This document shows positions 658 through 61,932 of a DNA stretch of 64,000 bases, in pieces (position 1 is the stretch's first letter; each line of letters starts with the position of its first letter). The notes under the pieces were generated by a model, which searched no databases, had not been told where the DNA came from, and saw only the letters and a program-made list of their open reading frames with translations. The stretch is from Mytilus edulis (taxonomy: Eukaryota), in the NCBI RefSeq assembly GCF_963676685.1, contig NC_092349.1:57474001-57538000 (forward strand). The letters run 5' to 3'. The translations under genes were made by a program, and so were the position numbers.

Positions 658-2658
658 ATGGATACATCAGTTGATTTAACAGAAGAGGAAGTTCGGAACA
701 TCATTGCTGCCTTCAAAGACATGCATATGAAGCCAAATGCAGAATCTCCAGATGCATTTAAAGATTGGATGAAGGAGTTCTCAACACAGAAATCATTATA
801 TACTGGATATATACCAAGGATTCCTACCTTCTCCGAGGACAATAAAGGAGACAACACCTATGAAGTATGGAGGTACCAAGTGTTATGTCTTATCATAGAA
901 AACTACGCACACGAAGTTATTGCTCAGGCCATTAGACGTTCACTAAGAGGAGAACCTAGCAAGATAGTCATGCGATTAGGCCCTAAAGCTACTGTCGACG
1001 ACATCATTGACAAGATGGATAGCATTTATGGAATTGTAGATCCAAAGGAAGCGTTATTGGCACAGTTTTATACAGCCAGACAGGAACAAGATGAAGATGT
1101 TTCCACCTGGGGATGTCGTTTAGAAGACATTTACAACAAAGCACGCCGACAAGGAAAGATTTATGAGGAAGATGTAGATATGTTACGATCAATGTTTTGG
1201 AAAGGATTAAAACCGGAACTCAAGAGAATATCAGGATACAAGTTTGATACGATCAAGGATTACAACCATCTTTTATTGGCGATGCGAGAATTGGAACATC
1301 AACAGAAGGAATATACTAAAGAGAACACACCTCCAGTTGAAAAGAAACCAACACCAGCTAAGAGAGCAAATGTACCAAGGAAAAAGGATAAGAACGAACT
1401 GGAGACCGTAGTCAAGCAATTGATGTCACAGATTGAACTTTTAGAAAAACGACAAGAACAATTGATCAACAACAGTAAGCATAACAGGACAGATCTGATA
1501 CACCAAACACCTGATGAAACTATAGCATATAGACCATTGGATATGAATAAGAGAAAAGATAAACATCAGAAAACATGTTGGAGATGCGGACAACTTGGCC
1601 ATATTGCTATTGGATGTAAAGTAAGACTGGATAACTCTAGGAAATTTGATAGAGCCATGAATTACCAACAAGTCACGAATGATTATCAACCAACACCAAC
1701 TACATACAACAAAGAAGATAGATTATGCGGACCGGCAAATGAAGTTTCCATCAGAATAAATGGAATAGATACAAAAGCATTGCTGGATACAGGATCATCG
1801 GTTTCAACAATCAGTGAGTCATTTTACAACAGACACATGAGATCTACACCGATTGAATCACTTACCCGTATATTGAAGATAGAATGTGCAGACGGATTAT
1901 CAATGCCTTATCTTGGTTACATCGAAGCAGACCTTCAACTACATGGAATATCTTCTATAAGATCATCTTATCCAGGCATATTTCTAGTAATACCGGACAG
2001 TGAATACAACACAACTGTACCATTATTGATAGGAACAAACATCATGTCAGTTGTAATGCAGGAGGTAGAACAGAACACTGGACCAAGGTATTTACAAGAA
2101 GCTAATCTACACACTCCATGGTATTTGGCATTCCGATGCATGAATCTGAGAAACAAGGAATTGGAAAGATGTCATAACCGATTAGCAGTTGTGAAATCCG
2201 CCGAAACACACTCGATTACAATACCAGCTAACTCTCAAGTTGTAATCAATGGATATTTAGACAAACAGCTTCAACAACAACAAATGTGTGCTATACTACA
2301 ACCAACTTGTAATTCAGCTTTACCAGAAGATTTAGATATCATGCCAACAGTAATTACTTACGATTGTCAAAAACGAGGAAGTATACCGATACACATATCA
2401 AACGTCACAACAAGAACCGTTACACTACAACCACGAGCTCTCATTTGCGAAATTCAACCAGTTGACATTGAAGATATTGTTACACCGGAGGAAAAAGAAT
2501 TTAAAGATATTATGAAGGACATAAAATTACCGATGGATGATTTAACTGATGATGACTATGAAAGAGGAAAGGAGCTCATACACAGTTTCCAAGATATTTT
2601 TCTAAAGGAGATGATGATATTGGACACACTTCAGCAGTACGTCACCGTATTGACTTGA
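658..2658 (+). CDS. gag: Gag (PNMA-like capsid, CCHC zinc knuckle) fused to aspartic protease
   Basis: First ATG in the ORF body is at 658 (MDTSVDL). Motifs: CWRCGQLGHIAIGC knuckle and LLDTGS protease site. The residues after about 2600 are out of frame with respect to pol. Confidence 0.88.
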   Translation: MDTSVDLTEEEVRNIIAAFKDMHMKPNAESPDAFKDWMKEFSTQKSLYTGYIPRIPTFSEDNKGDNTYEVWRYQVLCLIIENYAHEVIAQAIRRSLRGEPSKIVMRLGPKATVDDIIDKMDSIYGIVDPKEALLAQFYTARQEQDEDVSTWGCRLEDIYNKARRQGKIYEEDVDMLRSMFWKGLKPELKRISGYKFDTIKDYNHLLLAMRELEHQQKEYTKENTPPVEKKPTPAKRANVPRKKDKNELETVVKQLMSQIELLEKRQEQLINNSKHNRTDLIHQTPDETIAYRPLDMNKRKDKHQKTCWRCGQLGHIAIGCKVRLDNSRKFDRAMNYQQVTNDYQPTPTTYNKEDRLCGPANEVSIRINGIDTKALLDTGSSVSTISESFYNRHMRSTPIESLTRILKIECADGLSMPYLGYIEADLQLHGISSIRSSYPGIFLVIPDSEYNTTVPLLIGTNIMSVVMQEVEQNTGPRYLQEANLHTPWYLAFRCMNLRNKELERCHNRLAVVKSAETHSITIPANSQVVINGYLDKQLQQQQMCAILQPTCNSALPEDLDIMPTVITYDCQKRGSIPIHISNVTTRTVTLQPRALICEIQPVDIEDIVTPEEKEFKDIMKDIKLPMDDLTDDDYERGKELIHSFQDIFLKEMMILDTLQQYVTVLT

Positions 2659-5600
2659 TAGACAATGTTCCCTTCAAGCAGCGTCACAGACGAATACCAC
2701 CATCTATGCTAGAAGAAGTACGTAACCATTTGCAACAACTACTATCAGCAGGAGTGATAAGAAGATCCCATTCACCCTGGTCATCGAATGTGGTATTAGT
2801 ACGTAAGAAGGACGGAAAGCTTAGAATGTGTGTAGACTACCGTCAGCTCAACCTAAAGACCATTAAAGATTCATATGCGCTTCCCCGCATTGAAGAGATT
2901 CTGGATTCCTTAGGAGGCAACACATATTTTACAGTGCTAGATATGAAGAGCGGGTACCATCAAGTTGAGATCGAGGAGGAACATAAACAACGCACCGCCT
3001 TCACCGTTGGACCGTTAGGATTTTTCGAATTTAACAGACTTCCATTTGGACTCTCAAACGCACCAGCTACGTACCAAAGACTCATGGAAGAATGCTTAGG
3101 TGATTTACACACACGTATATGTTACATCTACCTAGACGATCTTATTATTTTCTCGAAGTCCATAGATGAACACCTTGAACGCCTAGAAAGAATTTTCCAG
3201 CGACTCCGTGATGTAGGACTCAAGCTATCCCCTAAGAAATGTTCATTCTTACAGAGGAGAGTTAAGTATATCGGACACATTGTTTCTGCTGATGGTGTAG
3301 AGCCAGATCCTGAGAAAGTAGAAAAAGTAGCCAACTGGCCAAGACCAAGGACTCCAGAAGAAGTACGCCAGTTCCTGGGATTTGTTGGCTATTACAGGAA
3401 ATTTATCAGGGATTTTTCGAAGATAGCACGACCATTAACAGACTTGATGCCAACAACTTGTAAGAAGAAGACCCGAGGAAAGAAGAAACCTACAGAACCA
3501 ACATCTTGGCATTGGAACAAAGAACAGAATGAAGCTTTCGAGACATTGAAGTCGCACTTGTCATCACCGCCGATTCTTGGTTTTCCTGACTACAAGAAGC
3601 CTTTCGAAGTGCACACAGATGCATGTCAGACAGGACTTGGAGCCGTTTTATACCAGCAACAGGGAGAACACAAGAGAGTTATAGCCTATGCCAGCCGAGG
3701 TCTCTCAAAGACAGAACGGAATTACCCAGTCCATAAACAGGAATTCCTAGCACTAAAGTGGGCAGTTACAGAGAAGTTTGGAGATTATCTGCAGGGAAAC
3801 AAGTTCACCGTCTACACAGATAATAATCCATTGACATACGTATTGACGTCTGCGAAGCTTGATGCGACAGGTCACAGATGGATTGCTGCTTTAGCTGCCT
3901 TTGATTTTAACATCATATACAGACCAGGCCGTAACAACGCCGACGCTGATGGATTATCAAGATTACCGGCTATTATCAGTCAACAAGATTGCATACAAGA
4001 TGTCCAAGAGCGTATTAAAGATTCAACAAACATATCAACGGAAAGTGTGAAAGCTATTTGTAGTTCGATACAACGACAACCATATGTAGAATGCCTTGCA
4101 GTAACTACAAATGATCTTGCTAGTAAAGTGGATACAGCATCAACCAAAAAGATCGACATCAGAGAAGAGCAACTACGTGATCCAGTGATAAGAACTTGGA
4201 TAAATTATCTATCGCATGGACAGAAACCACGAAAGGAAGATATACCGTCTTCACCTGCGCATAACCAGCTATTCGCCAACTTTGACAAACTGGTTATACA
4301 GAATGGAATCCTTTACCGTAGAACAACTGTTAATGGAGACACAAAAGATCAGCTTGTCTTGCCAAACTCACAGATACCATCTATACTCCGTTCACTTCAC
4401 AACGACATGGGTCATCAAGGTCGTGATAGAACAACATCTTTAGTGAAGGACAGATTTTATTGGCATGGAATGACAAAGGATATAGATGAATATATTCAGA
4501 AATGCCCAAGATGTTTAAAAAGAAAACAGCTACCCAACCAAAGAGCTCCATTGACGAACATCCGAACAACACAACCAATGGAAATAGTTTGTATGGATTT
4601 CCTTACACTAGAACTTTCGAAAGGTGGTTTCCAGCACATCTTGGTAATAACCGACCATTTTACAAGATATGCCCAGGCGATACCGACTAGGAACATGAGT
4701 GCAAGAACAACAGCAGAAGCGTTCTTTAATAACTACGTGGTACACTATGGTCTTCCAGAACGCATACACTCGGACCAAGGAGGAAACTTTGAAAGTCGTT
4801 TGATGAAAGAACTTTGTAGTATAACTGGTGTCAAGAAGTCAAGAACAACACCATACCATCCCATGGGTAATGGCCAATGCGAACGTTTCAATCGCACACT
4901 ATTGAGTATGCTTGGCACATTACAGAATCACCAGAAAGCCGATTGGAAATCATACCTTGGTCCAATTGTTCACGCATATAATAGCACAAAACAGGAAACG
5001 ACAGGATTTTCACCATTTGCTCTGATGTTTGGCAGAGAACCACGCCTGCCTATAGATCTTGCACTAGGAATAGAAACAACGAAAGAACAGAAGACAAATA
5101 CGAAGTATATTGAGAATTTAAAAGAAAGACTGAAAAAATCTTATGAGTTAGCTACGAATTCAGCAAAGATAGCTCAAGGACGTCAGAAGAAACATTATGA
5201 CAACAAAGTGCGTGGAGCCATATTACATCCAGGCGATCGAGTACTTGTAAAGATTCTGAGTTTCGATGGAAAGCACAAGCTATCTGATAAATGGGAGAAT
5301 GACAGCTACGTCATATTAGATCAGCCTAACTCCACTATCCCAGTCTTTACAGTGAGGAAGGAAAGCGGACATGGAAGAAAGAGAACCTTACATAGGAACC
5401 TTCTGTTGCCTATTGGTTCAGTTTCCATCGATGAAGATGAAGAAAAGGAGAAGCCTAGACCTACTCCTGCACCACGATTAAGACCCAGGAAGAATAGAGT
5501 AGATCCACAACCAACGCCAAGTCTTCATGATAGCACTCTGACAAGTTCTGATGAAGAAAGTGATGATTATTTGGTTTATGTGGTTACAGAACCTGACGTT

Positions 5601-6116
5601 GAAGACTTAAGTGCTCCACACAGTGCTATTGATGAGTTAGAAACTCAGGATGATGATGATACCGTTCAGGACGAGGATGATGACGATCAGGAACACGTTG
5701 CTGAACAGCAAGATACTGGAATTGAGGGTGACGACCTTCCATCTGAAGAGAATGATACAGTTTATCCAGTACTTGAACCTGATGAAGTGTCAGAGACCGA
5801 TCAACAAGAAGCTGACATTTCATTATCTGATGATACAGAGGAACCTGGGCAAGACGCCACTGTTGATGAAACAGTAGATAATGTCCCTCAGCCGGACATT
5901 GAAGCACCATGGATAGAACCGAGAAGATCTGTACGTGCCAGAACATCGACAGCTACCACGAAGTATAAGGATTTTATAGTATCCAAGAAGAGTCAGCCAC
6001 AACCTGACTGGAAGAGTAGAGCTGATTATCTGAAGGATATTGCTTCTAGCGGTACTTTCAAAGGCATGGAGGACCAGATTCTAGCAGGCCTTTTGAAGAT
6101 TGCCACTGAGAAGTGA
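2601..6116 (+). CDS. pol: Pol: RT, RNase H, integrase, acidic C-terminal tail
   Basis: Motifs: LDMKSGYHQ, LPFGL, YLDD, TDAC, HHCC (HNDMGH...CPRC) and the integrase core (MDF, SDQG, ERFNRTL). The frame extends upstream of the called ORF as SKGDDDIGHTSAVRHRIDL. Confidence 0.93.
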   Translation, partial: SKGDDDIGHTSAVRHRIDLIDNVPFKQRHRRIPPSMLEEVRNHLQQLLSAGVIRRSHSPWSSNVVLVRKKDGKLRMCVDYRQLNLKTIKDSYALPRIEEILDSLGGNTYFTVLDMKSGYHQVEIEEEHKQRTAFTVGPLGFFEFNRLPFGLSNAPATYQRLMEECLGDLHTRICYIYLDDLIIFSKSIDEHLERLERIFQRLRDVGLKLSPKKCSFLQRRVKYIGHIVSADGVEPDPEKVEKVANWPRPRTPEEVRQFLGFVGYYRKFIRDFSKIARPLTDLMPTTCKKKTRGKKKPTEPTSWHWNKEQNEAFETLKSHLSSPPILGFPDYKKPFEVHTDACQTGLGAVLYQQQGEHKRVIAYASRGLSKTERNYPVHKQEFLALKWAVTEKFGDYLQGNKFTVYTDNNPLTYVLTSAKLDATGHRWIAALAAFDFNIIYRPGRNNADADGLSRLPAIISQQDCIQDVQERIKDSTNISTESVKAICSSIQRQPYVECLAVTTNDLASKVDTASTKKIDIREEQLRDPVIRTWINYLSHGQKPRKEDIPSSPAHNQLFANFDKLVIQNGILYRRTTVNGDTKDQLVLPNSQIPSILRSLHNDMGHQGRDRTTSLVKDRFYWHGMTKDIDEYIQKCPRCLKRKQLPNQRAPLTNIRTTQPMEIVCMDFLTLELSKGGFQHILVITDHFTRYAQAIPTRNMSARTTAEAFFNNYVVHYGLPERIHSDQGGNFESRLMKELCSITGVKKSRTTPYHPMGNGQCERFNRTLLSMLGTLQNHQKADWKSYLGPIVHAYNSTKQETTGFSPFALMFGREPRLPIDLALGIETTKEQKTNTKYIENLKERLKKSYELATNSAKIAQGRQKKHYDNKVRGAILHPGDRVLVKILSFDGKHKLSDKWENDSYVILDQPNSTIPVFTVRKESGHGRKRTLHRNLLLPIGSVSIDEDEEKEKPRPTPAPRLRPRKNRVDPQPTPSLHDSTLTSSDEESDDYLVYVVTEPDVEDLSAPHSAIDELETQDDDDTVQDEDDDDQEHVAEQQDTGIEGDDLPSEENDTVYPVLEPDEVSETDQQEADISLSDDTEEPGQDATVDETVDNVPQPDIEAPWIEPRRSVRARTSTATTKYKDFIVSKKSQPQPDWKSRADYLKDIASSGTFKGMEDQILAGLLKIATEK

Positions 6117-10980: not shown

Positions 10981-12576
10981 TACACCCGGGAAAAAGTATT
11001 GCAACACCAAATATAAAATGAGATTAAAAGCTGATATTTCATTTTTTTTTATTTTCATTTTTATTCATCTGATAGAGTACACCTTTCCTACTTATTGACC
11101 TTAAATCAATTGTTTTCTCCCATGCATTTCCCCATGAACTGTCCGTGCCTGGCCGCCACTTTAAACTTAAAACTTTTAAAAGTTAAGTTTTAGGTACGGG
11201 TCAAAATATATGCTGAATGTTAGCTTGTTTTTGAAAAACTTATCAACAGTTGATGAAATGTGTCCTCCTCAACTTTCTAGTGATGTTAGATGGCAAATAA
11301 ATTGCATGCGAGAAGCTGGAATTTCGTTAAGGCAGATTGACCGACGCGTGGGCCACCACCATTCACCCATCAGCAGAATTGTAAGTAAACATCAAAATAC
11401 CAATTCTGGAAGACCTTCAGTATATTCCGATCGTGAAAACAGAGCTCTAAACCGACTTATTCGAAGAACCCCCTTCATTAACAGTACAGTATTGAAAAGA
11501 GAGTGGTTTCCACATCGTGCAGTCTCCTCAAGAATTTTGAGAAATCGACTCAAAAGGGCAGGATACTGTTCCCGAAGGCCCGTGAAAAGGCCATTGTTAA
11601 CGCCTAGACACAAAGCTGAACGATAACGGTGGTGTCGAGCTCGTCGTCGCTGGAATGTGGTATCTTGGAGAAGAGTGCATTGGTCCGACGAAAGCAGATT
11701 TTTGTTGCATGTCACGGATGGCCGAGTTCGTGTTTGGCGGCAGCCAAATACCGCATATGCCGAAAGAAACATTGTTTAGAGAGTCGCTTTCGGTGGTGGT
11801 TCCGTTATGGTGTCGGAATGTGTGTCGTATGACTGCAAGTTGGACATAAAAACTGTTCGTGTAACCTTAATGGGCAAAGATACCAGCAGAAAATCCTTGA
11901 GGCAAGTTTAGTGCCGCATTTTGACAATCACCCGTTGAGGACAAGACCCATTTTCATGGACGATAATGCACGAACGCGTGCTGTAACAGCGTATCTTCAC
12001 TACGAGTCAGTGGAGACATTGCCCCGACCAGCATGTTGCCCTGATTTAAACCCGATATAGCACATTTGGGACATGATTGGTCGAAAAGTGCAAAAAATTA
12101 CACCTCCTGTGCAAAATCTTGCAGAATTGGACAATGCACTGCAACATGAATGGCAACAGATAACACAACAACAAATACGACGGTTATGTGGTGGTATGAG
12201 AAGGCAACTGAAAACAGTGATCCATGTGAACAGAAGTTATACAAAATATTGATATTTCCGGTTTAAATTGACAAAATTGACCAAAATGGGTGTGTTCGAC
12301 ATCATCTGGAAGTTGTTCGATGGAACTGGAATGCGTAGACCAATAGTTGTAAACAGTTAATTTGTGCTAAAAAAGTTATGTCTTTTTAATAATAATACTT
12401 TGTATAATTAAATTTGATTTTTTCAGTGTTTAACATGTCTATCAGTTTAAAAAGACCCAATTCACCCCCAAAACTATTAACATTTTACCATATTTTAGAA
12501 AAAAAAGGTACACGTAAGGTTTGAAATTTATCTTATCGAAAAAAATCAGGTGTTGCAAAACTTTTTTCCAGGTGTA
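10981..12576 (+). mobile_element. Tc1/mariner DNA transposon, complete termini
   Basis: TIRs tacacccgggaaaaagtattgcaacacc and ggtgttgcaaaacttttttccaggtgta, both flanked by TA. Confidence 0.92.
11258..12252 (+). pseudogene. Tc1 (DD34E-type) transposase pseudogene
   Basis: HTH region, then WSDES, MDDNAR and PDLNPI*HIWD. The catalytic Glu codon is TAG (12058-12060). There is a further stop at about 11624 and frameshifts. Confidence 0.9.
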
Positions 12577-19070: not shown

Positions 19071-20409
19071 TTTGATCAAAGTCTAGTCCATTATATAATT
19101 TTGAATCAGAACTTGACTTTTTTTAATAATATATATATATATATTGGAATATATTTGTACATAGTAAAACAATAGTAATATTAATTGACATATATTGTTA
19201 TAGGAAAAGTATAATACAAATTATTATTTGTTAACAATCTGATAAAATTTATCTGTTCATGTGTACACCTGGATCTTGTATTACAAAATATTACAATACA
19301 AAATATTGTAGTCAATCTTATCGTGTATCGACCTTTTAACAAACGAATGTGCGGTAATAGATTAAGTAACAACAATAAAGCTAATAATAGTATCTATGAA
19401 CCAGACTGTAATCTCTTCAAGCATGTTGACACAATGGACCATTAATATCATGACACTGAGTGTCATCACCTGTTGTGTCATTATTGCAGATAATTCTAAC
19501 TGGAACAGGAACATCATATGCATCGTATGGTTGTTATAATATAAGTCAAACTATACATGCAGGTTTCTTGTCCCTTTCTCTTAAAAAAAACCCTGATATT
19601 TATGAATAACACATTTTGTTTTTAAATAGCGCAAAGCTCCAATTCTATTCATTTCGAATATACAACTAAACATCACAGATATGTTTACATTTTATAAACG
19701 AAATTTGTGCTTAATATTTTATCACATTTTCTTTCGTGTTCATTTTTAATTTCAAAATCAAGAATTGTTTTAAAATATGCTATGCAATTTTTTTTAAATA
19801 AACGTATAAGAAAACTTGAGTTATAAAGAATATGCCATAATAAACGAGAAGAAATATTTTGTGTCAAAAAAATATTTTTCTGCAACATTTAAAAAATATC
19901 TTGATGCAAATCGAAGTCTGACTAATGTGTAGGGATAAAAAAAAAAAAAAAGGCTTGAAAATACTTGTTTAAACTGATCAAGCGGAAATTGAAGTATCGA
20001 CATGGATTTGGTTGTGTCACTCTTATGTTTGATATTTCATTTTGACCAAAAAAACTATGCTGCTTATAAAGTTAGAATCTTCTTTTTAATGATCTTGACT
20101 TTACTATGAGACCTGCATCAAATAATATACGGATACAGTATGCAATCACTTTTTGTTGCGATTTTGTTTCATCTATCTCATTTAACATTTCTGTGAAAAT
20201 ATTTGTTGGAGCGAGAATTTTTTTCTAAATATAAACCTGATAAATATATAAAGCTCTGACATACTTTGTCATTTCTTTAATATATATATTTGTTGATTTG
20301 TATATATTTTTATTTTATATACAATGAAATGATATAGATATTATATATTATTCAGCACTGAATTGAGTACAACATTTTCTTTTTTTTAGGATAACAAATA
20401 TAACCTACA

Positions 20410-21357
20410 ATGGCAACTAAACGCACATTAGACACAAAGAGCACAGAAGAACAAACCACCGGTGAATCAAAAACCAAAAAGGTGAAAATTTCTTTAGACA
20501 GCTCAACAGGGTCATTGACAAAAGAAAACGTCGATAAAAGCGACCAATCTTCCAAGAAAGTAGCTAAACAGAACGAAATACCTTGTAAGAACAAAGAAGA
20601 AAAAGATGACAGAATGGATGACCATACTATGACTGCCATTACCATCAAAATTGGTATGAACGAAACCAGCACTTACAAATATGTTGACACGAAGGATAAG
20701 TTTATTGAAGTCATTAAAGAGCTCCAGGAAATGATAAAAAATAAGCAAATGATAGCTGTTGATTGCGAAGGGGTAGACTTGTCAAGATTTGGATCAGTAA
20801 CACTGATTAACATTGGCACTCGGGATCTGGTCTATCTAATCGATATTTTGAAAATAGGGAATAGTGTATTTGATGATGGTCTCCGTACTATACTCGAGGA
20901 CAGTGGGATAGAAAAACTGATGTTCGACTGCCGAGAAGATGCCGATGCTTTATTACATCTTCACAAAGTTAAACTCGATGGAGTACTGGACGTTCAAATA
21001 CTAGAAGTAAGCAATCGAGTACATGTTTACAGAAATGGATATACTAAGATCAGAAGCCTTAAACATTGCCTAGAGGAATACGTAAATGACAATACATTAT
21101 TGAATATCAAGTTACAAGGACGGTCAAGTATGAATATGTCGAGTAATATTTGGGAGAAAAGGCCACTGGACGAAAACATGTTGAAATATGCTAGTGTTGA
21201 TATTCTTGGTCTCTTCAAACTCTATAATGCACTTCGTACTAGAATGAGTCATAGTGTCTGGAAAGCAGCCTCAAGTCGATATTGTGACACAACTCGCTCA
21301 AGAAACAGAATGTACCGTGATGGCAGTGGAATCTTACCAAAAGGCGTAATAATATAA
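20410..21357 (+). CDS. DEDDy 3'-5' exonuclease, EXD1/Egalitarian-like; CDS in a single exon (315 aa)
   Basis: ExoI IAVDCEG, ExoII MFDCREDADAL, ExoIII YASVD. Polypyrimidine acceptor ttttcttttttttag ends at 20389, just before acaATGG. Lys-rich N-terminus. Confidence 0.85.
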   Translation: MATKRTLDTKSTEEQTTGESKTKKVKISLDSSTGSLTKENVDKSDQSSKKVAKQNEIPCKNKEEKDDRMDDHTMTAITIKIGMNETSTYKYVDTKDKFIEVIKELQEMIKNKQMIAVDCEGVDLSRFGSVTLINIGTRDLVYLIDILKIGNSVFDDGLRTILEDSGIEKLMFDCREDADALLHLHKVKLDGVLDVQILEVSNRVHVYRNGYTKIRSLKHCLEEYVNDNTLLNIKLQGRSSMNMSSNIWEKRPLDENMLKYASVDILGLFKLYNALRTRMSHSVWKAASSRYCDTTRSRNRMYRDGSGILPKGVII

Positions 21358-22699: not shown

Positions 22700-25310
22700 A
22701 TTATATTAAGGCACTGGGGTATTAATCGTTTAATCAACTGAACCCATTTTTATTGAAGCCGCTGGACTAGTTGTTAGTGAAGCCAGTCACTGGGCACGTC
22801 GTAATATAATCAACTTGGCTGACAGTTATTTAAACCGCTGGACATGTTGTTCTTGAGACGCCACTGGGCGTGTTTTTATTGACACCTCTTGGCGTGTTAT
22901 TGACGCCACTGAGCGTGTTGTTATTGACGCCACTGGGCTTGTTGTTAATGACGCCACTGGGCGTGTTATTATTGACGCCTCTTGGCGTGTTACTTGACAC
23001 CACTGGGCGTGTTGTTATTGACGCCCCTGGGCAAGTTATTATTAAAGCCACTGGGTGTGTTGTTATTGACACCACTGGGCGAGTTGTTATTGACGCCACT
23101 GGGCGTGTTGTTTTTGACGCCACGGGGTGTGATGTTATTGACGCCACTGGACAGGTTGTTATTGACACCACATGGCAGGTAATTATTGATGCAACTGGGC
23201 GTGTGGTTATTAAAGCCACTGGGCAGGTTGACATTGAAGCCACTGGTCAGGTTGACATTGAAGCCACTGGGCAAGATGCTGTTAAAGCCACTGGGCATGT
23301 TGTTATTGACGCCTCTTGGCGTGTTATTGACGCCACTGGGCGTGTTGTTATTGACGCCACTGGTCGTGTATTTATTGACGCCTCTTGGCGTGTTATTGGC
23401 GCCACTAGGCGTGTTTTTATTGACACCTCTTGGTGTGTTATTGACGCCACTGGGCGTATTGTTTTTGACGCCACCGGGCGTGTTTTTATTGACGCCACTG
23501 GGCGTGTTGTTATTGACGCCACTGGGCAGGTTGTTATTGACGTCAATGGGCGTGTTGTTATTATAACCACTGGGCAGATTGACATCCAAGCCACTTGGCA
23601 AGATGCTGTTGAAGCCACTGGGCATGTTGTAATTCAATTCATGGGCTAGAAGTTATCTAAGCCATTAGACAGGTTGTTATTAATGCACGTTGTATGTTGT
23701 TATAGACGCCACTGGGCAAATTGGTATTGAAGCCACTGGGCAGGTTGTTTGTTAAACCACTTGGCAAGTTGTTGTTGAAGACACTTGGCTGGTTATTGTT
23801 GAACCCACTGGACTGGTTGTTATTGATGCCGATGGACAGGTTGTTGTTGACGCAGCTGGGCGTGTTGTTATTGAAGACAATTAGACAAGTTGTTATAAAA
23901 ACCACAAGCCTGATTTTTAATTAAGCCACTGGGCATGTTGTTATTGACTCCACTGGGCATGTTTTTATTGACACAACTGGCAAAATTATTGTTAAAGCCG
24001 AGGGAAATGATGCGGTTGAAGTCACAGGGCATGTCGTAATTAGAGCCATGTGCTAATATTATTTAAACCACTCGGCAATTATTATTGACGCCACTGGGTA
24101 GGTTGTTATAGACGCCACTGGGCGGATTTGTATTGAAGCCGCTGGAAAGGTTGTTTGTAAAGCCAGTGGGCAGTCTATTGGTGAAGACACCTGGCTTGTT
24201 CTTATTGACACCCATGGACAGGTCGTTGTGAAGCCATCGGGCGTGTTGTTATTGAAGAAACTGGGCAATTTGTAATTAAAGCCAATGGACTGATAGTTAA
24301 TTAAGCCACTGGACATGTTATTATGACGCAACCGGACATATTATTAGTAATACATATGTGCATGATATTACTGAAGCCACTGGGCATTTAGTTATAAAAG
24401 ATATAAGTTGGTAGTTATATTAAGCCACTGGGCAGGTTGGTAATGATGCCACTGGGCAGGTTGTTTGTAAAGCCAATGGGCCGGTAGTTTTTGAAGACAC
24501 TGAGCAGTTTCTTATTGACATCAGGGGGCAGCAAGTTGTTAAAGACACTTGACTGGTTGTTTTTGAAGCCACTCAGCGTTCAGTAATTGAAGCTACTAGG
24601 CTGATAGTTACAGTTATTTAAGCCACTCGGCATGTTGTTATTGACGCCATTGGCCAGGTTGTTATTGAAAATACTGGACTTGTAGTTGTTGAAGACTCTT
24701 GGGCAGTTGTTGTTGAAGACACTTGGCTTGGTGTTGAGGACATTGGGTTGGTAGATGTTGAAGACACTGGGCCTGGTGTTGAGGACATTGGGTTGATAGA
24801 TGTTGAAGACACTTGCAGTGAGTTGGCTGGTTGTTGTTGAAGCCACTGGGCAGGTTGTTATTACAAACACTTGGCTGGTAGTTATTCAAGACACTGGGCA
24901 TGTTGATGTTGAAAACACTGGGTAGGTTGTTATTACAAACACTTGGTTGGTAGTTATTCAAGACACTGGGCATGTTGATGTTGAAATTACAAGGTAGGTT
25001 GTTGTTGAAGACACTTGGCAGGTTTGTTGTTGAAACTTGGCTGGTTGTTTTTGAAGACACTGGATCAGTTTTTGTATACGCCACTGGAGATGTTGTTAAA
25101 GACACTGAGGTGGTTGTCGTTGAACACACTGGGCAAGTTTTAATTAAAGGCACTTGACTGGTTGTTGTTGAAGACGCTGGGTATGTTGTTATTGAAGACA
25201 CTGGGCTGGTTGTTGTTTAAAAAACACTGGACAGGTTGTTATTACAGACACTGAGTTGGTTGTTGTTGCAGACACTGGGCAGGTGGCTGTTGATGAAGCA
25301 ACTAGGCTAT
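22700..25310. repeat. Degenerate 24-bp (variant 21-bp) minisatellite, consensus gacgccactgggcgtgttgttatt
   Basis: The unit is directly visible and explains the overlapping repetitive ORFs on both strands. It is most homogeneous at 22850-23630. Confidence 0.9.
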
Positions 25311-44067: not shown

Positions 44068-44804
44068 AAATGATAACATTATCGAATTGGGTACTGTCGG
44101 TTTTATTGTTGCTCTGTTTTGTATTTATTAATAATACAAATTTGCATCATTATCATTGAGATCGATATTAAAGCACGATAACAATTCTTTAAACTGTTAT
44201 GTTTATTTCTTATTTTTTTCAGATGTTTACCGACATTTTAATAAAGACCAAAGTAAGATCATTTGTGTACAGCATTACATTAAAGAGGCTTTACTTTATT
44301 ATTAGAGGTTAAATTATTACATAATAAGATTTATTTTGATTCTGTGGTGACATTCACCCTGCATTCTTTTTTATGTGCAATAAAATAAATAGAAAGCACG
44401 AGCTATTAAAATATTCCCAATATGTAATAGAAGAAAGTAAAGTGTACTCTTTCAGAAATAAATAAATACTTTAAAGAAAATGTGTTTGACAAACACCCAA
44501 AGTTTTTTTTTATTATGTTCGATAATATAGAGTGATGCTATAACATGTCACTACATGTATACATTGATGCACATTTCTGCACACGTCAACAACTCTTGGT
44601 ATGTTACTATACTAACCGGTAATTTTAGATTTAAAAAAAAAAAATTTTGAAAAGAATTTTGCATGTGACGGTGTAAACATATGATACTAAATGTGTTTCA
44701 AATACACCTTCTTCTTTTATGTGTTTAAATGTTATACGTAAAAATATTGCTGAATATACTAAAATTATACAAAAACAGGTTAACGGGTGGGAGGCGCTTT
44801 CCTT

Positions 44805-44882
44805 ATTGGTTCTGTCGTTCTTTTACCAGACTATAAAACAGGCATACATTTGGAAAGCTGTATACTGCAACTGAAGTTAAAG
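44805..44882 (+). promoter_or_regulatory. Core promoter and short non-coding exon 1 of the peptide-precursor gene
   Basis: ATTGG (reverse CCAAT) at 44805, TATAAAA at 44832-44838 and donor aag|gttagt at 44883. The layout is conserved in the paralog at 60645-60732. Confidence 0.7.
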
Positions 44883-46039
44883 GTTAGTTTTATTACGAAA
44901 CAATTTACTTAAGCAGAATGATTTCGTCGTGCAAATAGCCAAAATATGATATATGCAATTCGTTTTCTGTATTTTTTGCGTTTATAAGTAAAGGCAACAT
45001 TAGTGTATCGATGTTAAAATCTCTGAGAGATCAAGAAAATACAAAGTAACAGGCAAAAACCGAGAGAATAAGTTAGTTGATTATGTTGTACAAGGATGAT
45101 TATTTAGTACAAATAAGGTGGTTTCCTCAAAAGAAGCAACATGAGATAGAAAAGCATACTCTATTCCTTATTACAAATTGGTGCCCTCAAGGAAAAACGT
45201 AGAAATAAAAAAAAAATATTTTAAGACGACAATTTTATATATTAAATAGTGCTTGGTATTATATTACTATAAGTTGTCATATCTTGTAAAGTATATATTG
45301 ATGTAAGACTTTAAAATTGGGGTTGTTAAGTATATTTACAACTTTTGTGGACTTATCTGGACATATCATTTAGACGCATGTGAAAGGTTGAGTGATCATC
45401 TCTTTACTTTTGAGTGTTCTATAGGTTTGTGTCGTTGGATTAATGTCGTTTTGACATTTAACTCAAACACCGGTTTATTCAACAAGACAACGTTTGGTGA
45501 TGTAACATGTATATTTCATCGACATACTATAAATGTATTGCGAACCCATTTTGGTCAATTGTTTGGGATTGATATATGCTTCAGTCACTTAAACCTTTAT
45601 TACAAATGGCTAGAAAGCGTGTTTTTTTCTGTAAAAATAATATGCATTATAACCATTAAGCGGTATTATGGATGTATAAACATGTATGCATATAGAATTC
45701 GTTATGCTGTATCTGAACATTTGCAACAGTTCTTAGCAATAACATATTATTTTGAAAAAAAGAAATATTAAGAAAGGGATACAGGAAATTGCAATTTAAA
45801 GTGAAAATAAACAATAATCATGTGCATGAAGGCATAAATATAGTATTTTATTTAAAGCTTAATTGCTGGAAAACATTTGCTTAATGTAATTTAGATGACT
45901 TAACATGTTAATATATAAGACCTTTCCAATGAAAGTAGAATTTGATTTGATCTTTTTCATCAAGTTGTCTTTTTGTTTTAGTAAACGTACTGTTTTATAT
46001 ATAAATCCAAAATGCTACAATGATGCAGAGTCTGCTACT

Positions 46040-46195
46040 TGAATAGGAGCTTGGACAAATACTCTTTTACTTGTATACGAGCTTGAACATATACTCCTTA
46101 ACTTGTTTACGAGCTTGAACATATACTTGTTTACTTGTAAAAGAGCTTAAACGCATACTCTTTAACTTGTATACGAGCTTGAACATATACTCTTT
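46040..46195. repeat. Intronic ~31-bp minisatellite, about five copies
   Basis: (tac)gagcttgaacatatactc(c/t)ttaacttgt unit. Confidence 0.8.
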
Positions 46196-46341
46196 AATAA
46201 CACGTTTTACAAACAGCTACATAAACTAAACTACATATTAACAAGCACAACACATGCATTATTTGTTTCTACAGAACAAGCTACCTTAATGGCATTTCAA
46301 CACTTAATTGTATTTTTTTCTATTGCAGAAAACTAGTGACA

Positions 46342-49300
46342 ATGAAGGCTGTAGTAATATTTAGCTGTCTGTTCATGACAGTATGTGGTAAGAAAATTGT
46401 GTTAATACTTATACAAAAATATAATACACAAAGTCTTTAGAAACATTCCACAGACCAATTACACTGTTAATTTACAATATGTTTATTTACATTCGAAAAA
46501 GTTTAAAGGTAATGTTTTTGTCTTGTCAATGACTTAAAATAAATGGATAAAACCAATCAATCAAAGTAGAAAAAAAATCGACGAAATACAATTTCATGGA
46601 CCCAAACATTTGTTTCGATCTTAAATTCCAAATGTTTCCCTTTTGATCGATTATATTTGTACTGTTTGTGCAAACAATTCGTTGTCACAATACTTGTTTG
46701 AAGCAGTGTTCAATCAAAGATAAGCGAATCTAAACAATGCTAAAGTTTTGTAAGTGTCTAACAGCGAAGACCTTAATGGTTTTGTTTTTCGGCCAAACTT
46801 GACATGAAACAATAACTCTTTATCCGTTTGAGACCAACATTGCTGTACATTGGCAATCATGCCACATCTTTTTATATTCATATAATTAAATTGTGATTAT
46901 TTTTTTTATTAAATTCATTTTGACCCATTTACATTTTGAACTATGTCAATTTGAGTTAAAACAAATTGTAACAATTGTTTGAGCTATATACTAAAGCATG
47001 TATTCAATTGATTTTCTTTATAGATCAACATTTAGGATTATTAGGTTACTAAATCTTAACTAACGTGAGCAATCCCAATACCTAAAACTGGGTGCTCTTC
47101 AGTGGGTTTTTATATGTGTTTAAATGACGAAAACTAAATACTCTTACACAAACTCCATTTAACTTTCACTTTGTTCTACCTCTCTCAAAAATGAATACCA
47201 AATTGCATCTTTTCTGTAACATTTTCAGGAATGGGTATTCAAAAGAGAAATGCAGATCTTGGAGACATACATGGTGACAATGATGATTTCGCCATTGATT
47301 CCCTAATGAATTATCTCAGGTAAAACCAAAGTTGTAGTAGTTTTAGTTCAATGTGTATTAATAATTCATAGTTGATAATTTTTATAGTTTTATATTCCGA
47401 TGCCTATACACTAAAATTTATAAATCTTGTATATGGCTTAGAAAAATTTCGAGATAAGGTATCTAATTGGCTTATCATAGTCTACTTAGTCTACTAAGGA
47501 CTGATCAATACTAACCCCATAAAAAACGTGGTTAGAATCTATATTTCATTTCTGTCATTTCCGTTATTACAACATTCACTTTAAGTCTATAGTCCATATT
47601 ATAATAAGTACTTACATCTCATATACTCTTGTTGAATTTCATCTATCATCTTTCATCTGTTTCCAACTTCCAATTATGAATCAGTAACATATCATCATTC
47701 CAAGCCTTTGAAGTTATAACATTAAAGTTAATTTTCCTGAAGTTATTTTCATTTTGTACGTTATTCGCCAAATAAAATGGATTGGTTGATCATTACACTA
47801 GATACATTTGAAATAATAGATAAAACCTGAACCGATGTTATGAAAAAAAAATGCCAAAGGGCAATACAAAAATCAATTTTGCAGATTTTGAGTAATTTTA
47901 GGGACACTTTTTAACAAAAATCTAATTTGTGTTGGAAGCATATTAAATGGTGTGTATAAGATAAAAAATAATTCATTTATGTAAATGACTGTCTTTTTTT
48001 TTCTACAAATTTTGAAAATAAAACTTTAAATTTTCAATTATGTCTCAAAAAATATGCACTCTGTTCGTGTTGTAAAGTCAAAATTGTTTGCTTATCAAAA
48101 TTCAATAAACAAATATCAGCACATACCATGATAAATAAATAAAAATCACGAATATTTATGTATTTTACCATATATCATTTGTGATAAATTATTGAAAGTT
48201 GTATTCTGTTATCGTTTATTTTGTTTTTCTATATATCAAGCGCATCAGTAAAAATAATCCATTATTTAAAAAAAATCCAGTAATATCCTGAATCATACTT
48301 ACTATTGTTTTAAGTAAAATCTTGGATCTTAATCTTTGGTAATAGAAATTTAATACAATTCAGATTCCTCCAAGTACAAATCTGGATATCTAATTTTCTA
48401 CTAGTGAATATTGGAATTCCAATTTGTACTAAGAGGATCCTAGATCTTTGTTCTATAACACAAAATGTCATACTTTTCACCCATATTTGTTGTATGTTTT
48501 AAACCTGGACGTATGAGCTTAATTATTTTCTTATTCGTGCCCTCAAACGCAAATAAAGTATATATGAACAAAAACTCAAACACATATCTATGGGAAACAG
48601 CTCGCCTAGACGAGTGCAGCAAAGTTTTATTATCAAATAATTCAACTGTCATCAAATCACATTACCAGCACACTAAGACCGCTGCAGCATACATGTCTTA
48701 CAAACAAATCTACAATGAGAAATAATGAAATAGAATGTTTCATATCACAAAACCATAATTTCATAATGTTCTTTTTAAAATCTGCAGAAAAAGCATAATG
48801 CATTTACAATATTATAAGCTTATACAAAACATGTACACAGGGGGGAAGGGGTGGGGAAAAACTTCACTGCACTAAGACTGAGCTTCGAATGACCAAGCTA
48901 TGAAAATGTATTTTCAATGTCAACGTTTACCGCGAATGACCAGTCCGTGCTATCATACATCGAACTTTAAACTCTTAACTTTGTTAAGGTGACTTATTGT
49001 TATGCTAAAATAATGTAAATATTATTTTAAACATAAACACATGTTCCCAATATAACAACAAACCAATGTGCTATCGATAGTTAATAAATACATATATGTT
49101 GTTTACTTTTTCAATAGGAAAAGATGGAGTATAGGCAGTGGCAACAAAGGAAATGATAATCAAGCAAACAACAACAACGACATTGGTAATTCATATGAAG
49201 AAAATAATAAAAATACACATGTAGCGGGGATAGGAAATATTGGTGACTTTGGAAAGAAACGTGACTCGTCAAATGAGGATAAAAGATGGAGTATAGGAAG

Positions 49301-50519
49301 TGGCAACAAAGGAAATGGTAATCAAGCAAACAACAACAACGACATCGGTAATTCGCATGTAGAAAATAATAAAGATACACATGTAGCGGGGATAGGAAAT
49401 ATCGGAGACTTTGGAAGGAAACGTGACTGGAATATTGGAAGTGGCAATACAGGCAATCATAATTCTGCAAGTGGCAATAGTAACATCGGCAATAGCGAGA
49501 AGAATTATGACAAGAATACAAATGTATATGGCGTTGGAAATATCGGAGACTTTGGAAGAAAACGTGACTGGTCTTTTGAAGGTAAACGATGGAGTATAGG
49601 AAGTGGCAACAAAGGAAATGGTAATCAAGCAAACAACAACAACGACATTGGTAATACGTATGAAGAAAATAATAAAAATACACATGTAGCAGGGATAGGA
49701 AATATTGGAGACTTTGGAAAGAAACGTGACTCGTCAAATGAAGATAAAAGATGGAGTATAGGAAGTGGCAACAAAGGAAATGGTAATCAAGCAAACAACA
49801 ACAAAAACATCGGTAATTCGCGTGTAGAAAATAATAAAGATACACATGTAGCGGGGATAGGAAATTTTGGAGACTTTGGAAAGAAACGTGACTCGTCAAA
49901 TGAAGATAAAAGATGGAGTATAGGAAGTGGCAACAAAGGAAATGGTAATCAAGCAAACAACAACAAAAACATCGGTAATTCGCATGTAGAAAATAATAAA
50001 GATACACATGTAGCGGGGATAGGAAATATTGGCGACTTTGGAAAGAAACGTGACTCGTCAAATGAAGATAAAAGATGGAGTATAGGCAGTGGCAACAAAG
50101 GAAATGGTAATCAAGCAAACAACAACAACGACATCGGTAATTCGTATGAAGAAAATAATAAAAATACACATGTAGCGGGGATAGGAAATATCGGAGACTT
50201 TGGAAGGAAACGTGACTGGAATATTGGAAGTGGCAATACAGGCAATCATAATTCTGCAAGTGGCAATAGTAACATCGGCAATAGCGAGAAGAATTATGAC
50301 AAGAATACAAATGTATATGGCGTCGGAAATATCGGAGACTTTGGAAGAAAACGTGACTGGTCTTTTGAAGGTAAACGATGGAGTATAGGAAGTGGCAACA
50401 AAGGAAATGGTAACACTGCAAATGACAACAGCAACATTGGTAATTCGTATGAAGAAAATAATAAAGATACAAATGTAATAGGAGCTGGAAATTTCGGAAA
50501 CTTTGATGGGAAACGATAA
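46342..50519 (+). CDS. Secreted multi-peptide precursor, 512 aa; join(46342..46387,47229..47319,49118..50519)
   Basis: Exon 1 codes MKAVVIFSCLFMTVCG (g|gtaag, phase 1). Exon 2 codes MGIQKRNADLGDIHGDNDDFAIDSLMNYL (ttttcag| ... ag|gtaaaa, phase 2). Acceptor tttttcaatag| then joins in frame to RKR-WSIGSGN... Total 1539 nt = 513 codons. Confidence 0.88.
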
Positions 50520-51631
50520 ATAAGGTAAATTGTTTCCAAGTAATATTTTTTTTTATAGAATCAAAAACAATTTAGATGTTGACTAAATCAGTCTGATATC
50601 CCTAGTTAACTAGTAAACAGTCTGTAAACTGCAACAGTCATTTTGATTTAATCAAAGACTGTGTTATAAATAATTAAGCAGGATGTATTTACCATTCCAG
50701 GGCACCTGAGATCAACCCTGCTTTTTGTTGCTTTTCGTTTTATGCAGTTTTTGTTTTGTATTTTTTTTTTTTTAGTTTTGTAGACCGTTGTTTGTCTGAA
50801 TTTTTGTTTTTACCGTGGCATTGTCAGTTTGTTTTCGACATATGAGATTACTTATTCCTTTGTTATCATCCGCTTCCCCTTTTTGGGCCGTGTTCACCGA
50901 GTTCGTACTTAAAAGAGCAAGATCTGCCAACCATTTCGGGAAACTGAGATCAACCGAATTTTGATGAGGTTCGTTTTGCTCAGTATTTTGTTTTCTATGT
51001 TGTGTTTTGTTTACTATTATTTGTCTTTTTCTGTCCTCGTCATGTCGTTTCAATGTCCTTTGGTATATTTTGCCTCTCTTTTTGAGTCTTTCGGTTATTT
51101 TTCAAACTTGATCACTGCGTGTTAATGTAGTACAACTGGCTTACAGTAAATTAGGATTTGTCCAGTCTTTGTTCAGTCTTTTCAGTAGTTGAATAGTCCT
51201 TGATTGCCTGCTAGGAAAATGTCTGAACAGTACTGAATCAACAAGAAGAAAATATCTTCAAAATAACTTCAAATCTTAACTAGATTTAACGTTTTTAGTT
51301 TTAATCTTTTTCTATGATGTTAAGACCAACAAGACTTAATTTCATTAAACGTATATATTATATATTACACATATATAGTTGAACATGATATACTAATAAA
51401 ACGGTACAATATTTTTTGTGAACGTAAGTAAATGACATCAAACTTTTAACAAGACTAAGAAAATCATTCATATTTATAATTCACATTAAATATTGTCAAC
51501 TAAAGAAGAAATTAGATAACAAAAAATGTAAAGTAAGTGAGTATTATAACATTTAAACAATGTGTAAAATCATAAACCTTGTAATGTACTTTCATATACT
51601 ATTTACTTGTTTTTCTGTTTTTGTTTTACAG

Positions 51632-52850
51632 GTAAAGAAAAGAAGTAAGGACATTTTCCACCACACCATTCTTCTTTTCATTGTGCGTGCGATGCAAATA
51701 TCTCATATATTACTGAACAGTATACTTGTATTTGATATACATTTTTGCATTAGTTGTTTACACACAGAATATGATTAACAATTTAAAAGTATAACAATTT
51801 AACCATATGTAGATTTTTAACAAAAATATATTAGATATATGTTTTATATTATTACGTTTATTTTTAGCAAATAACTAAGTGCTAGTGTTTCCCGAATCGC
51901 TTTGTCTTCATAAAGGATACTACCTATTTCAATGTAGTTAAGGTATTTGGTTGTGTCCAGTTCTTAATCAACAGTAATAATTTCCCTACTCAATAAGGTA
52001 TGGAGCCTTAAATTTGAAATAAGATTGAGATGTCAGATATGACTATGATTTTTTTTTATAAAAGCCAATCCATGAAAAGGGCAACTGCAATTCATTTTTA
52101 AAGTAAATTGACATTTTTTAATCTGTAAAAAAGTTTCTTTCTTAAGATAAATCATTGATATTTGTTAATTCTACGGATACTTGAGTTTATTTCATTGCAC
52201 AGATCAATCCTGTGAGTTTAAAATATCAAAAGTGTCTGCATCTGTAGTTACATCATTAGCAATTGTCTCTCGATTAAAAATGAATACATACTTGTTAATT
52301 TTGCTATCAAAAGTTTTCCATGAAATAAAAGAAAAAAATGTTCTCCGTTGTGCATTTGTTCAAAAAAAGATATTGCACATCAAAAGCCAATAGTATTTTC
52401 ATTTGTCCCTTTCCTTTAAAATGTTAACTACATTTTGAATGATAAGATGAATTTATTGCTTTTTATTTGATGTCTTGAAACTATAGGTAAAATGTTGAAA
52501 ATTAAAGGAGAATTGGTACATCACGTTTTATAATATTTTCATTGGCCTAAAACAAAGAGTGAGAATATACCAAGGGACCACAAACAAATCCAAGAAACAT
52601 TTACTATGACATTTAAATAATAGTCAAATTAACTATTCTGAGAAAGATAGACTAATACACTACACTATTTTAATAGTTTTTTTGTATAATATATATCACT
52701 TCATCATCCTTTTAGTTTTTGTTACATTTTTTTAAAGCAGAAATATAGATGTTATATTTCAATACTGCTAAATACTTGCTTTGTTGTAATAATTTTTTAT
52801 TTCAAATAGTATATATTATTTAATAAAGGTTTTAATTGCACAAATACAAC
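51632..52850 (+). other. Putative 3'-UTR exon of the precursor gene
   Basis: Donor taag|gtaaat at 50525 lies 5 nt after the stop. Strong acceptor ttttctgtttttgttttacag ends at 51631. AATAAA at 52822; the 3' end is uncertain. Confidence 0.5.
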
Positions 52851-60732: not shown

Positions 60733-61886
60733 GTAAGTTTTAATTTGTTTGAAAACAATGCGTTCATCTCGTTTACAGTCTAAATGTAATACAGTAATTT
60801 CTTTCCCATTATTTTTGTAAGTTTATTAGTTGATTTTATAAATTCATATAACAGCAGATAACCTATGTTCAAGTTTCTCCCATCAATTTAAAAGATAAAT
60901 ACCAAAGTAACAAGCACAAACTATGAGAATAAGCCAGTGTATGATTATATCTACGCGCGCTGAATAAGATCAAATTGGTAAAGGGTTTTTTTTTTTGAGA
61001 GAGGCGCAGGGTTGAGGAAACGCATACTTTACTACCATAAGCACAAAGGTGTGTGCTAAGGAAATATCTTTTAAAGTACTGTGCCTGATGTCAATTAAGC
61101 GGTTTTTCGGACGTAAGAGAAATTGCATGGATTTAGAACTCATTACGATAAATCTGAATATTTCTAAGTATTATTCACTGGACATTCAATTACTTGCAGT
61201 TGTCCCTTGGTTTTTGTCTCCCTGACTATTTGTTTCCCGAATATCCGTTTTGTCAAAGAGAAATCTGTTATTTTTATCATTGAGAGGCCTTATATAAATG
61301 TATTGAGATTCTCCTCTTTTGAATTATGTCAGGGATTTTTAATTGTCCTGGTTATGCATATAACTTTGTATTTTGAAATACACTGATTGGGAATAGCTTT
61401 TGGAAAATTGCAACATACAGTAAAAAAAAAACAGTATTGATATAAATAAACGCATACATATATTTTTCTTTTTTCTAAAACTTTCAAAGACCCATTGATG
61501 GCCTTCGGCGGTTGTCTGCTCTATGGTCGAGTTGTTGTCACTTTGACACATTCCCCATTTTGATTCTCAATTTTATTTCAGTTTAGCATTTGTTTAATGT
61601 ATCTTTGATATATAAGGAATCACCCCTCCCCCAGATAGTAAACTTTAATATAAACGTTTTCGTCAAGTGATATTACTGTTCTTGTAATCGTACTGTTTTA
61701 TATAAATTTCTTTTATAATGCAATGGTTCAAAGACTGCTACTTTGAAGCAAACTCGAAAATATACTCTTTTATAAAACTTTTATAAACTAAATATCAACA
61801 AACATAAAAATATATTGTTGTGGTCTAGAGTTATAAGCTATCTTAATGTTGGGTATTACTATTTCTATTTTAGAAAACAGTTGATA

Positions 61887-61932
61887 ATGAGGGATGAAGT
61901 AATATTTAGCTGTTTGCTTCTGACAGTCTGTG
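61887..61932 (+). CDS. Signal-peptide exon of the paralog (MRDEVIFSCLLLTVCG); later exons not found in the window
   Basis: Acceptor tttag| ends at 61873. The 46-nt coding length and phase-1 donor (g|gtatgg) match 46342-46387. Flanking intron sequence is also similar. Confidence 0.75.

What the first reader, a model, noticed from the sequence alone, without database searches (positions are those of the whole stretch)
49125..50516. Released peptides look like self-assembling beta-solenoid/amyloid units
Seen: each peptide has recurring IG-x-x-N, IGN and GN motifs (IGSGN, GNGN, IGNS, IGNIG), Asn runs, no Pro or Cys, and aromatic ends (W...F). Established: Asn ladders and Gly turns typify RHIM (I/VQI/VGxxN), curli (QxGxGNxA), mycobacterial PPE NxGxGNxG repeats and grass ice-binding proteins. 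Inference: charged spacers may keep the precursor soluble, and cleavage may trigger assembly into a functional amyloid for adhesive, matrix, ice/mineral-binding or antimicrobial use. The resemblance may be compositional only.
Basis: inference. Interest (0 to 1): 0.7.

Follow-up and report, generated by a model that had tools for sequence, protein, structure and literature searches.

The report
Mussel polyprotein of asparagine-ladder peptides
A spliced mussel gene, whose only relatives found are in other Mytilus mussels, encodes nine near-identical asparagine- and glycine-rich peptides that are predicted to be cut apart and secreted and likely stack into fibres, though a hormone-like role is almost as likely and neither has been tested.

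Summary
The stretch is exon 4 of a real five-exon, spliced Mytilus gene. Its 512-aa precursor has a signal-like N-terminus, basic cleavage sites and nine 42–43-residue units (27% Asn, 19% Gly, no Pro or Cys), each followed by a Gly-basic amidation signal. Relatives were found only in Mytilus. Two tandem paralogues lie downstream, one of them broken.

The mycobacterial MPTR pentapeptide matches 2/9 units, below Pfam's cut-off.

New evidence for a structural role: across paralogues the conserved positions are W1, G4, S5, G9 and Asn at 7, 12, 17 and 22 (five apart). The amidated C-terminus, and some cleavage sites, are lost. Against: AlphaFold gave no solenoid (pLDDT 26–34), the peptides are very hydrophilic, and gene 1 itself keeps an invariant C-terminal amide motif like a neuropeptide.

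Best reading (0.4): an animal counterpart of fungal Rep1, releasing peptides that self-assemble. A signalling role is close behind (0.33). Tissue of expression and function are unknown.

The parts
44661..44882 (+). exon 1 (5' untranslated); the start is where the contig begins, not a mapped transcription start
   Evidence: contig cover and GT..AG joint in X1 and X2
46329..46387 (+). exon 2: start codon at 46342 and most of the 16-residue signal-like peptide
   Evidence: joints; translation; same N-terminus in P0002-P0006; signal peptide judged by eye, no predictor run
47229..47319 (+). exon 3: short KR-ended piece and 23-residue acidic pro-region
49118..50524 (+). exon 4: nine repeat units with basic cleavage sites and the stop codon (50517-50519)
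49125..49250 (+). unit A1 (42 aa), followed by G-K-K-R and a 6-residue acidic spacer
49287..49412 (+). unit A2 (42 aa), followed by G-R-K-R, no spacer
49425..49553 (+). unit B1 (43 aa with leading Asp); residues 2-21 of the core match Pentapeptide_2 below cut-off; followed by a 5-residue spacer that has its own amidation signal
49590..49715 (+). unit A3
49752..49877 (+). unit A4
49914..50039 (+). unit A5
50076..50201 (+). unit A6
50214..50342 (+). unit B2 (one synonymous change from B1)
50379..50507 (+). unit C (43 aa), ends at the terminal G-K-R-stop
51632..52768 (+). exon 5 (3' untranslated); the end is where one contig stops (another reaches 52859)
   Evidence: joint and contigs in X1, X3, X7
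61874..61932 (+). first coding exon of tandem paralogue 2 (start codon 61887); its other coding exons lie beyond the window in L019 (1537-1646 and from about 3502)

Best explanation
This spliced Mytilus gene encodes a repeat precursor that is predicted to be secreted and cut into nine 42-43-residue amidated peptides, which likely act in bulk by stacking on each other through asparagine ladders and glycine turns into beta-rich fibres or a film. Shown: gene structure, splicing, repeat anatomy, basic sites preceded by Gly, and conservation pattern. Inferred from known peptide-processing chemistry (my own knowledge): signal peptidase, a dibasic convertase of PC1/PC2 type (none of the sites has the Arg four residues upstream that furin prefers), carboxypeptidase and amidating enzyme release the units in secretory granules. 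Inferred and untested: residues 1-22 (Asn every fifth residue) form two or more short beta-strand/turn rungs, 23-30 is a loop, 31-40 is a second strand; removal of the basic linkers permits in-register stacking; the product is an extracellular coat or matrix component, or a dense storage form in granules. It would work like Ustilago maydis Rep1, without being related to it.
For: Across 54 distinct in-register units from three paralogue groups (81 collected, 63 distinct, 9 set aside as out of register), the columns under 0.6 bit are W1, G4, S5, N7, G9, N12, N17, N22, K29, T31. Mean entropy is 0.76 bit for residues 1-12 but 2.07 for the last four. So scaffold positions are conserved, not the amide end that a receptor usually reads. 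The four most conserved Asn columns are spaced five apart; 3 of 715 four-column subsets of the 13 Asn-majority columns are evenly spaced (post hoc). No Pro in 2268 residues. Paralogue 2, present in at least four Mytilus species, has lost the KR between units 2 and 3; paralogue 3 has W-K-R sites, so no amide. Indels in paralogue 2's middle unit fall in the 23-30 loop. dN/dS is 0.10-0.35 for the 12 A-versus-B pairs. Precedent: Rep1 yields Kex2-cut peptides of 35-53 aa that form amyloid-like fibrils (PMC4617103 passages).
Against: AlphaFold2 gave no solenoid: pLDDT 34 for the exon alone and 26 for three units with a 16-row alignment; shallow alignments make this weak. RHIM, curli and grass ice-binding motifs are absent. 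The Pentapeptide_2 score is 15.5 bits against a cut-off of 26.4, only 2 of 18 units match, and an unrelated family (Orbi_VP6) scored as well. The peptides are very hydrophilic (GRAVY about -1.1; 10 of 42 hydrophobic residues), unlike amphipathic Rep1. The richest 80-residue stretch has 25 N+Q, under the 30 I recall as the usual prion-like mark. Within gene 1, G37, N38, G40, F42 and the amidation signal are invariant over 27 distinct units, as in a neuropeptide. Paralogue 3 is broken in this genome, so its lost amide may be decay. Tissue of expression is unknown.
Confidence: 0.4

Rival explanations
1. A lineage-specific neuropeptide, hormone or pheromone precursor: the soluble amidated peptides (possibly also the short amidated spacer after type B) act on a receptor, and the Asn/Gly bias reflects a flexible linker or reversible granule storage.
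For: Signal, acidic pro-region, dibasic/tribasic sites and Gly before every one of 9 unit ends; invariant GNxGxF-amide end within gene 1 across three Mytilus species; purifying selection; bivalves have many lineage-restricted neuropeptides (PMC8398477 section 2.7; PMC5996578 passages); no fold predicted.
Against: The amide end is the least conserved part across paralogues. At 42 residues the units are long for multi-copy neuropeptides (19 residues in the multi-copy starfish PP/OK precursor, PMC5814872 passages). No homologue was found outside Mytilus, and none of the oyster or scallop families in the text I read matches.
Confidence: 0.33
2. A mucosal defence precursor: the released peptides bind or entangle microbes or neutralise their products, possibly by aggregating.
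For: Tandem duplication, unit-number variation (5-9 units in gene 1) and a broken paralogue resemble Mytilus immune families; myticalins are predicted to use the same dibasic-plus-amidation route (PMC12294457 passages).
Against: Side-chain charge is -3 to +1, whereas myticalins are strongly cationic; the A, B and C types of gene 1 show purifying, not diversifying, selection.
Confidence: 0.15
3. A shell-matrix or ice-binding component whose regularly spaced Asn, Thr and Asp contact calcium carbonate or ice.
For: Mildly acidic, Asn/Gly-rich; one database entry is auto-named 'N66 matrix protein-like'; invariant T31.
Against: The N66 name is one of several unrelated automatic names given to family members; no carbonic anhydrase or other matrix domain in Pfam; grass ice-binding motif 0/9.
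Confidence: 0.07

Closest known systems
Ustilago maydis Rep1 repellent precursor and fungal KEX2-processed repeat proteins (PMC4617103, PMC9769878, PMC6339444; passages)
   Same: Signal peptide, tandem repeats separated by dibasic sites, released peptides of similar length (35-53 aa in Rep1, 42-43 here); Rep1 peptides form amyloid-like fibrils.
   Different: No sequence relationship found; animal; amidation signals; hydrophilic Asn/Gly-rich rather than amphipathic; fibril formation not shown here.
Multi-copy amidated invertebrate neuropeptide precursors (molluscan families in PMC8398477 and PMC5996578; pedal peptide/orcokinin type in PMC5814872)
   Same: Signal, acidic pro-region, KR/RKR sites, Gly-basic amidation signals, many copies.
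   Different: Units about twice as long or more; conservation lies in the N-terminal scaffold across paralogues; no match to the families described in the text read; no neural expression data.
Mycobacterial PPE-MPTR pentapeptide repeats (Pfam PF01469)
   Same: Five-residue Asn periodicity with G-x-G-N-x-G; sub-threshold profile match over residues 2-21 of type B.
   Different: Only about four pentapeptides per unit, no PPE domain, score below cut-off; convergent at best.
Myticalins (PMC12294457 passages)
   Same: Mytilidae-restricted, linear, cysteine-free, predicted dibasic cleavage and amidation.
   Different: Myticalins have one strongly cationic peptide per precursor; here nine neutral-to-acidic units without Pro.
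Database orthologues: XP_063396024 and XP_063416922 ('N66 matrix protein-like', M. trossulus), XP_076107395, VDI43208 and VDI43209 (uncharacterised, M. galloprovincialis)
   Same: Same gene, 83-91% identity over the aligned part for the two hits scored.
   Different: Automatic names only; 5-7 units instead of 9; no paper in the held library cites the six accessions searched.

Membership tests
RHIM | core tetrad (V/I)-Q-(V/I/L/C)-G (PMC13506858 passage) | tested here: not met
   0 of 9 units; a looser hydrophobic-x-hydrophobic-G-x-x-N occurs once in 9/9 (p about 0.05 against shuffles)
   0 of 9 with Gln; the Asn-for-Gln version once in 9/9; no curlin family among Pfam hits
PPE-MPTR | NxGxGNxG repeats scoring above the Pentapeptide_2 cut-off | tested here: not met
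   strict motif in 2 of 9 units; best 15.5 bits against 26.4, 2 of 18 units hit
PPE-MPTR | N-terminal PPE domain | tested here: not met
   no such Pfam hit on the full-length orthologue P0002
Grass ice-binding proteins | NxVxG / NxVxxG repeats (motif recalled) | tested here: not met
   0 of 9 units
Rep1 / KEX2-processed repeat proteins | signal sequence plus repeats flanked by dibasic sites (PMC9769878 passage) | tested here: met
   signal judged by eye
Rep1 / KEX2-processed repeat proteins | sequence homology to Rep1; amphipathic repeats | tested here: not met
   no non-Mytilus homologue named; GRAVY about -1.1
Rep1 / KEX2-processed repeat proteins | released peptides form amyloid-like fibrils | not testable with these tools
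   needs synthetic peptide
Amidated multi-copy neuropeptide precursors | signal, convertase sites, Gly before basic residues | tested here: met
   9 of 9 units
Amidated multi-copy neuropeptide precursors | conserved C-terminal amide motif (general rule, own knowledge) | tested here: inconclusive
   invariant within gene 1, least conserved across paralogues
Amidated multi-copy neuropeptide precursors | neural or endocrine expression; cognate receptor | not testable with these tools
   runs are coded, without tissue labels
Pedal peptide/orcokinin | short peptides with one N-terminal and two C-terminal conserved hydrophobic residues (PMC5814872 passages) | tested here: inconclusive
   I3, I39 and F42 fit loosely, but the units are 42 aa against 19 and no such homologue was found
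Myticalins | tripartite precursor with one strongly cationic mature peptide | tested here: not met
   nine units, side-chain charge -3 to +1
Nacrein/N66 shell proteins | carbonic anhydrase domain around the Gly-Asn repeats (recalled) | tested here: not met
   no Pfam family on P0002 at E up to 1

The most novel reading that the evidence does not exclude
An animal counterpart of fungal Rep1: mussels use the neuropeptide processing route (dibasic cleavage and amidation) to mass-produce a 42-residue pentapeptide-register building block that assembles into a functional amyloid after release. It would be a new amyloid motif and the first amyloid-type secretion reported from mussels, for which a 2025 review records none in the adhesive (PMC12472103 passage).
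Probability: 0.3. Interest if true: 0.78.

Novelty: new variant of a known kind. Interest (0 to 1): 0.5.

Why it matters
The gene family appears undescribed in the library searched and is mis-named in databases. If the peptides assemble, they give a short, synthesisable, cleavage-switched functional amyloid from an animal, and show that 'neuropeptide-like' precursors found by genome mining can encode materials rather than signals. If they signal, they are an unusually long, Mytilus-restricted peptide family in a farmed species. The peptides are 42-43 residues with predicted masses of 4.35-4.50 kDa, so both readings are cheap to test.

Tried and rejected
Complex prediction of four copies of unit A2: no verdict (score 0.03, mark 0.32; alignment not used, controls not folded); it is evidence neither way.

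No fold search was run, because both AlphaFold2 models were under pLDDT 35. ESM Atlas: no usable hit for P0002 or P0001, no models held. PDB sequence search: 0 hits at E up to 10 for one unit and for the 18-unit profile. Pfam NIPSNAP, tRNA_SAD, bCoV_SUD_C and Orbi_VP6 hits were rejected as summed-repeat or composition artefacts.

Run search: no RNA holder listed on record. The four listed runs with next to none of the words, and the lack of paralogue-2 cover in X11 and X21, are not used as evidence on expression. Contig depths were not used to rank expression.

The long minus-strand open frames over the repeat are treated as shadows of the repeat: the splice joints and orthologues fit the plus strand.

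Literature (10 searches): five six-letter peptide words gave one irrelevant paper, six accessions gave none, and 'Mytilus + peptidome + neuropeptides + genome-wide' gave none. One recalled PMC id was not held. PMC5656890 gave nothing relevant. No supplements were read; tables of Mytilus transcriptome or proteome papers could list the gene under other ids. Earlier scan notes by place, by sequence and by the first word search: none. ArchCandy, PLAAC and a signal-peptide predictor were not available.

Full report
What is there. The stretch is the fourth exon of a five-exon plus-strand gene in a 1.37-Gb animal genome; every named homologue is from Mytilus. Contigs of public runs join 44882-46329, 46387-47229, 47319-49118 and 50524-51632 across GT..AG introns. 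Each intron is bridged with at least 31 letters on both sides in at least 1 of the 4 runs laid. The spliced frame gives 512 residues: a 16-residue signal-like start (judged by eye), a short KR-ended piece, a 23-residue acidic pro-region and nine units. Each unit is followed by Gly and basic residues (G-K-K-R four times, G-R-K-R four times, terminal G-K-R). By established peptide-processing chemistry this predicts dibasic cleavage, trimming and amidation. Six units are type A, two type B and one type C; A and B differ at 40-43 of 126 bases.

Check of the observation. The composition is as described (N 27%, G 19%, no Pro or Cys). The listed motifs occur in 5-9 of 9 units. IG-x-x-N is not above shuffles; GN is modestly so (p about 0.02). 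Because the units are duplicates, recurrence across them is not independent. The defining motifs of RHIM (core tetrad from PMC13506858, passages), curli and grass ice-binding proteins (motifs recalled) are found in 0 of 9 units, and the MPTR motif in 2 of 9. Pfam Pentapeptide_2 matches residues 2-21 of unit B1 at E 0.016, 15.5 bits against a cut-off of 26.4. It hits 2 of 18 aligned units, and an unrelated family scored similarly.

Relatives. A search of 1.84 billion cluster representatives gave 8 hits: the query, 4 named Mytilus proteins and... more exactly, P0006-P0010 are named from M. californianus, M. trossulus and M. galloprovincialis, and P0011-P0012 are unnamed close matches. Three word-indexed searches gave 2, 10 and 13 hits; all named ones are Mytilus, and only about 8000 candidates were scored each time. 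Gene 1 orthologues carry 5 to 7 units against 9 here. Two paralogues follow in tandem. Paralogue 2 starts at window 61874, has three units, is spliced in 2 of 4 runs laid, and is recorded from four named species. It has lost the KR between units 2 and 3 and gained Cys residues. Paralogue 3 (L021) has 13 units of 141 bases with W-K-R sites, one premature stop and two single-base insertions in A-runs, so it is a broken allele or an assembly error.

Conservation. Of 81 units collected, 63 are distinct and 54 are in register; 9 were set aside (5 from paralogue 2 types with indels, 4 from the divergent P0007). Weighted over three paralogue groups, the conserved columns are W1, G4, S5, N7, G9, N12, N17, N22, K29 and T31. 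Mean entropy is 0.76 bit (residues 1-12), 1.12 (13-22), 1.64 (23-30), 1.24 (31-38) and 2.07 (39-42); Pro is 0 of 2268 residues. The four best-conserved Asn columns are five apart (3 of 715 subsets evenly spaced; post hoc). Within gene 1 alone, 20 columns are invariant, including G37, N38, G40 and F42. dN/dS is 0.10-0.35 for A-B pairs and 0.31-0.59 for A-C pairs, but 0.39-1.9 among paralogue-3 units. Each pair has only about 25 synonymous sites, some are near saturation, and the pairs are not independent.

Structure. AlphaFold2 gave mean pLDDT 34 for the exon alone, with only low-confidence hairpins near residues 24-36 of several units. It gave 26 for three units with a 16-row alignment. No solenoid was predicted; with such shallow alignments this is weak evidence against. 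The peptides are hydrophilic (GRAVY about -1.1) and neutral to acidic.

Mechanism. I favour (0.4) a bulk structural role. Shown: gene, splicing, repeat anatomy and conservation. Inferred: secretion, cleavage and amidation. Inferred and untested: stacking through the five-residue Asn register and Gly turns once the basic linkers are removed. The main argument is that selection across paralogues keeps the scaffold and register and lets the amide end and some cut sites go. A signalling role (0.33) fits the precursor anatomy and gene 1's invariant amide end. Defence (0.15) and mineral or ice binding (0.07) are less supported. Storage amyloid of peptide hormones (PMC13506858, passages) means the first two readings are not exclusive.

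Comparison with the known. It would work like Ustilago Rep1, whose Kex2-cut 35-53-residue peptides form amyloid-like fibrils (PMC4617103, PMC9769878, PMC6339444; passages), but it is not a member by sequence or amphipathy. It is not a RHIM, curlin, PPE-MPTR, grass ice-binding protein, myticalin (PMC12294457, passages) or N66. It matches none of the mollusc neuropeptide families in the text I read (PMC8398477, abstract and section 2.7; PMC5996578, abstract and passages). PMC5485727 (passages) describes HET-s as two pseudo-repeats joined by a loop with Asn ladders, a loose architectural parallel only. PMC12472103 (passages) says that, of mussels and barnacles, amyloid-like adhesive structures were reported only for barnacles. 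Searches for the peptide words and six accessions found no relevant paper; most subscription papers and all supplements were unseen.

Verdict. A real, spliced, Mytilus-restricted and apparently undescribed repeat-peptide family. The amyloid reading is plausible and sharpened by the conservation pattern, but it is unproven and the named family likenesses fail. New variant of a known kind; interest 0.5.

Noticed in passing
window 556-6113: Two long open frames of an LTR retrotransposon-type gag-pol (PNMA, aspartyl protease, RVT_1, RNase H, integrase domains).
   Followed up: partly
window 20404-21354: A 317-residue open frame with a 3'-5' exonuclease domain (DNA_pol_A_exo1, E 7.5e-22).
   Followed up: partly
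window 22857-25293: A 24-base minisatellite of about 90 copies in several arrays, open in several frames on both strands.
   Followed up: no
window 11180-11623: Tc1/Tc3-type transposase fragment.
   Followed up: partly
window 49566-49589 and 50355-50378: The five-residue spacer after each type-B unit begins Asp-Trp like the units and carries its own G-K-R; it is kept (one aromatic swap) in M. trossulus and M. galloprovincialis, so it may be a separate short amidated peptide or a remnant unit.
   Followed up: no
L021:1046-3461 and L020:9840-9900: Paralogue 3: 13 units, a premature stop in unit 4 and one-base insertions in A-runs of units 6 and 10; a charged residue sits in its signal region. 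Database copies P0008 and P0009 are short.
   Followed up: partly
P0006 (M. californianus): Joins gene 1's signal and pro exons to paralogue 2's repeat exon: alternative splicing across the tandem pair, or an annotation chimera.
   Followed up: no
P0007 (M. trossulus): A further family member in which most dibasic sites are replaced and new short Trp-containing linker repeats have expanded.
   Followed up: no
L026:3346-4218: A 291-residue open frame about 16 kb upstream of the window with no Pfam match.
   Followed up: no
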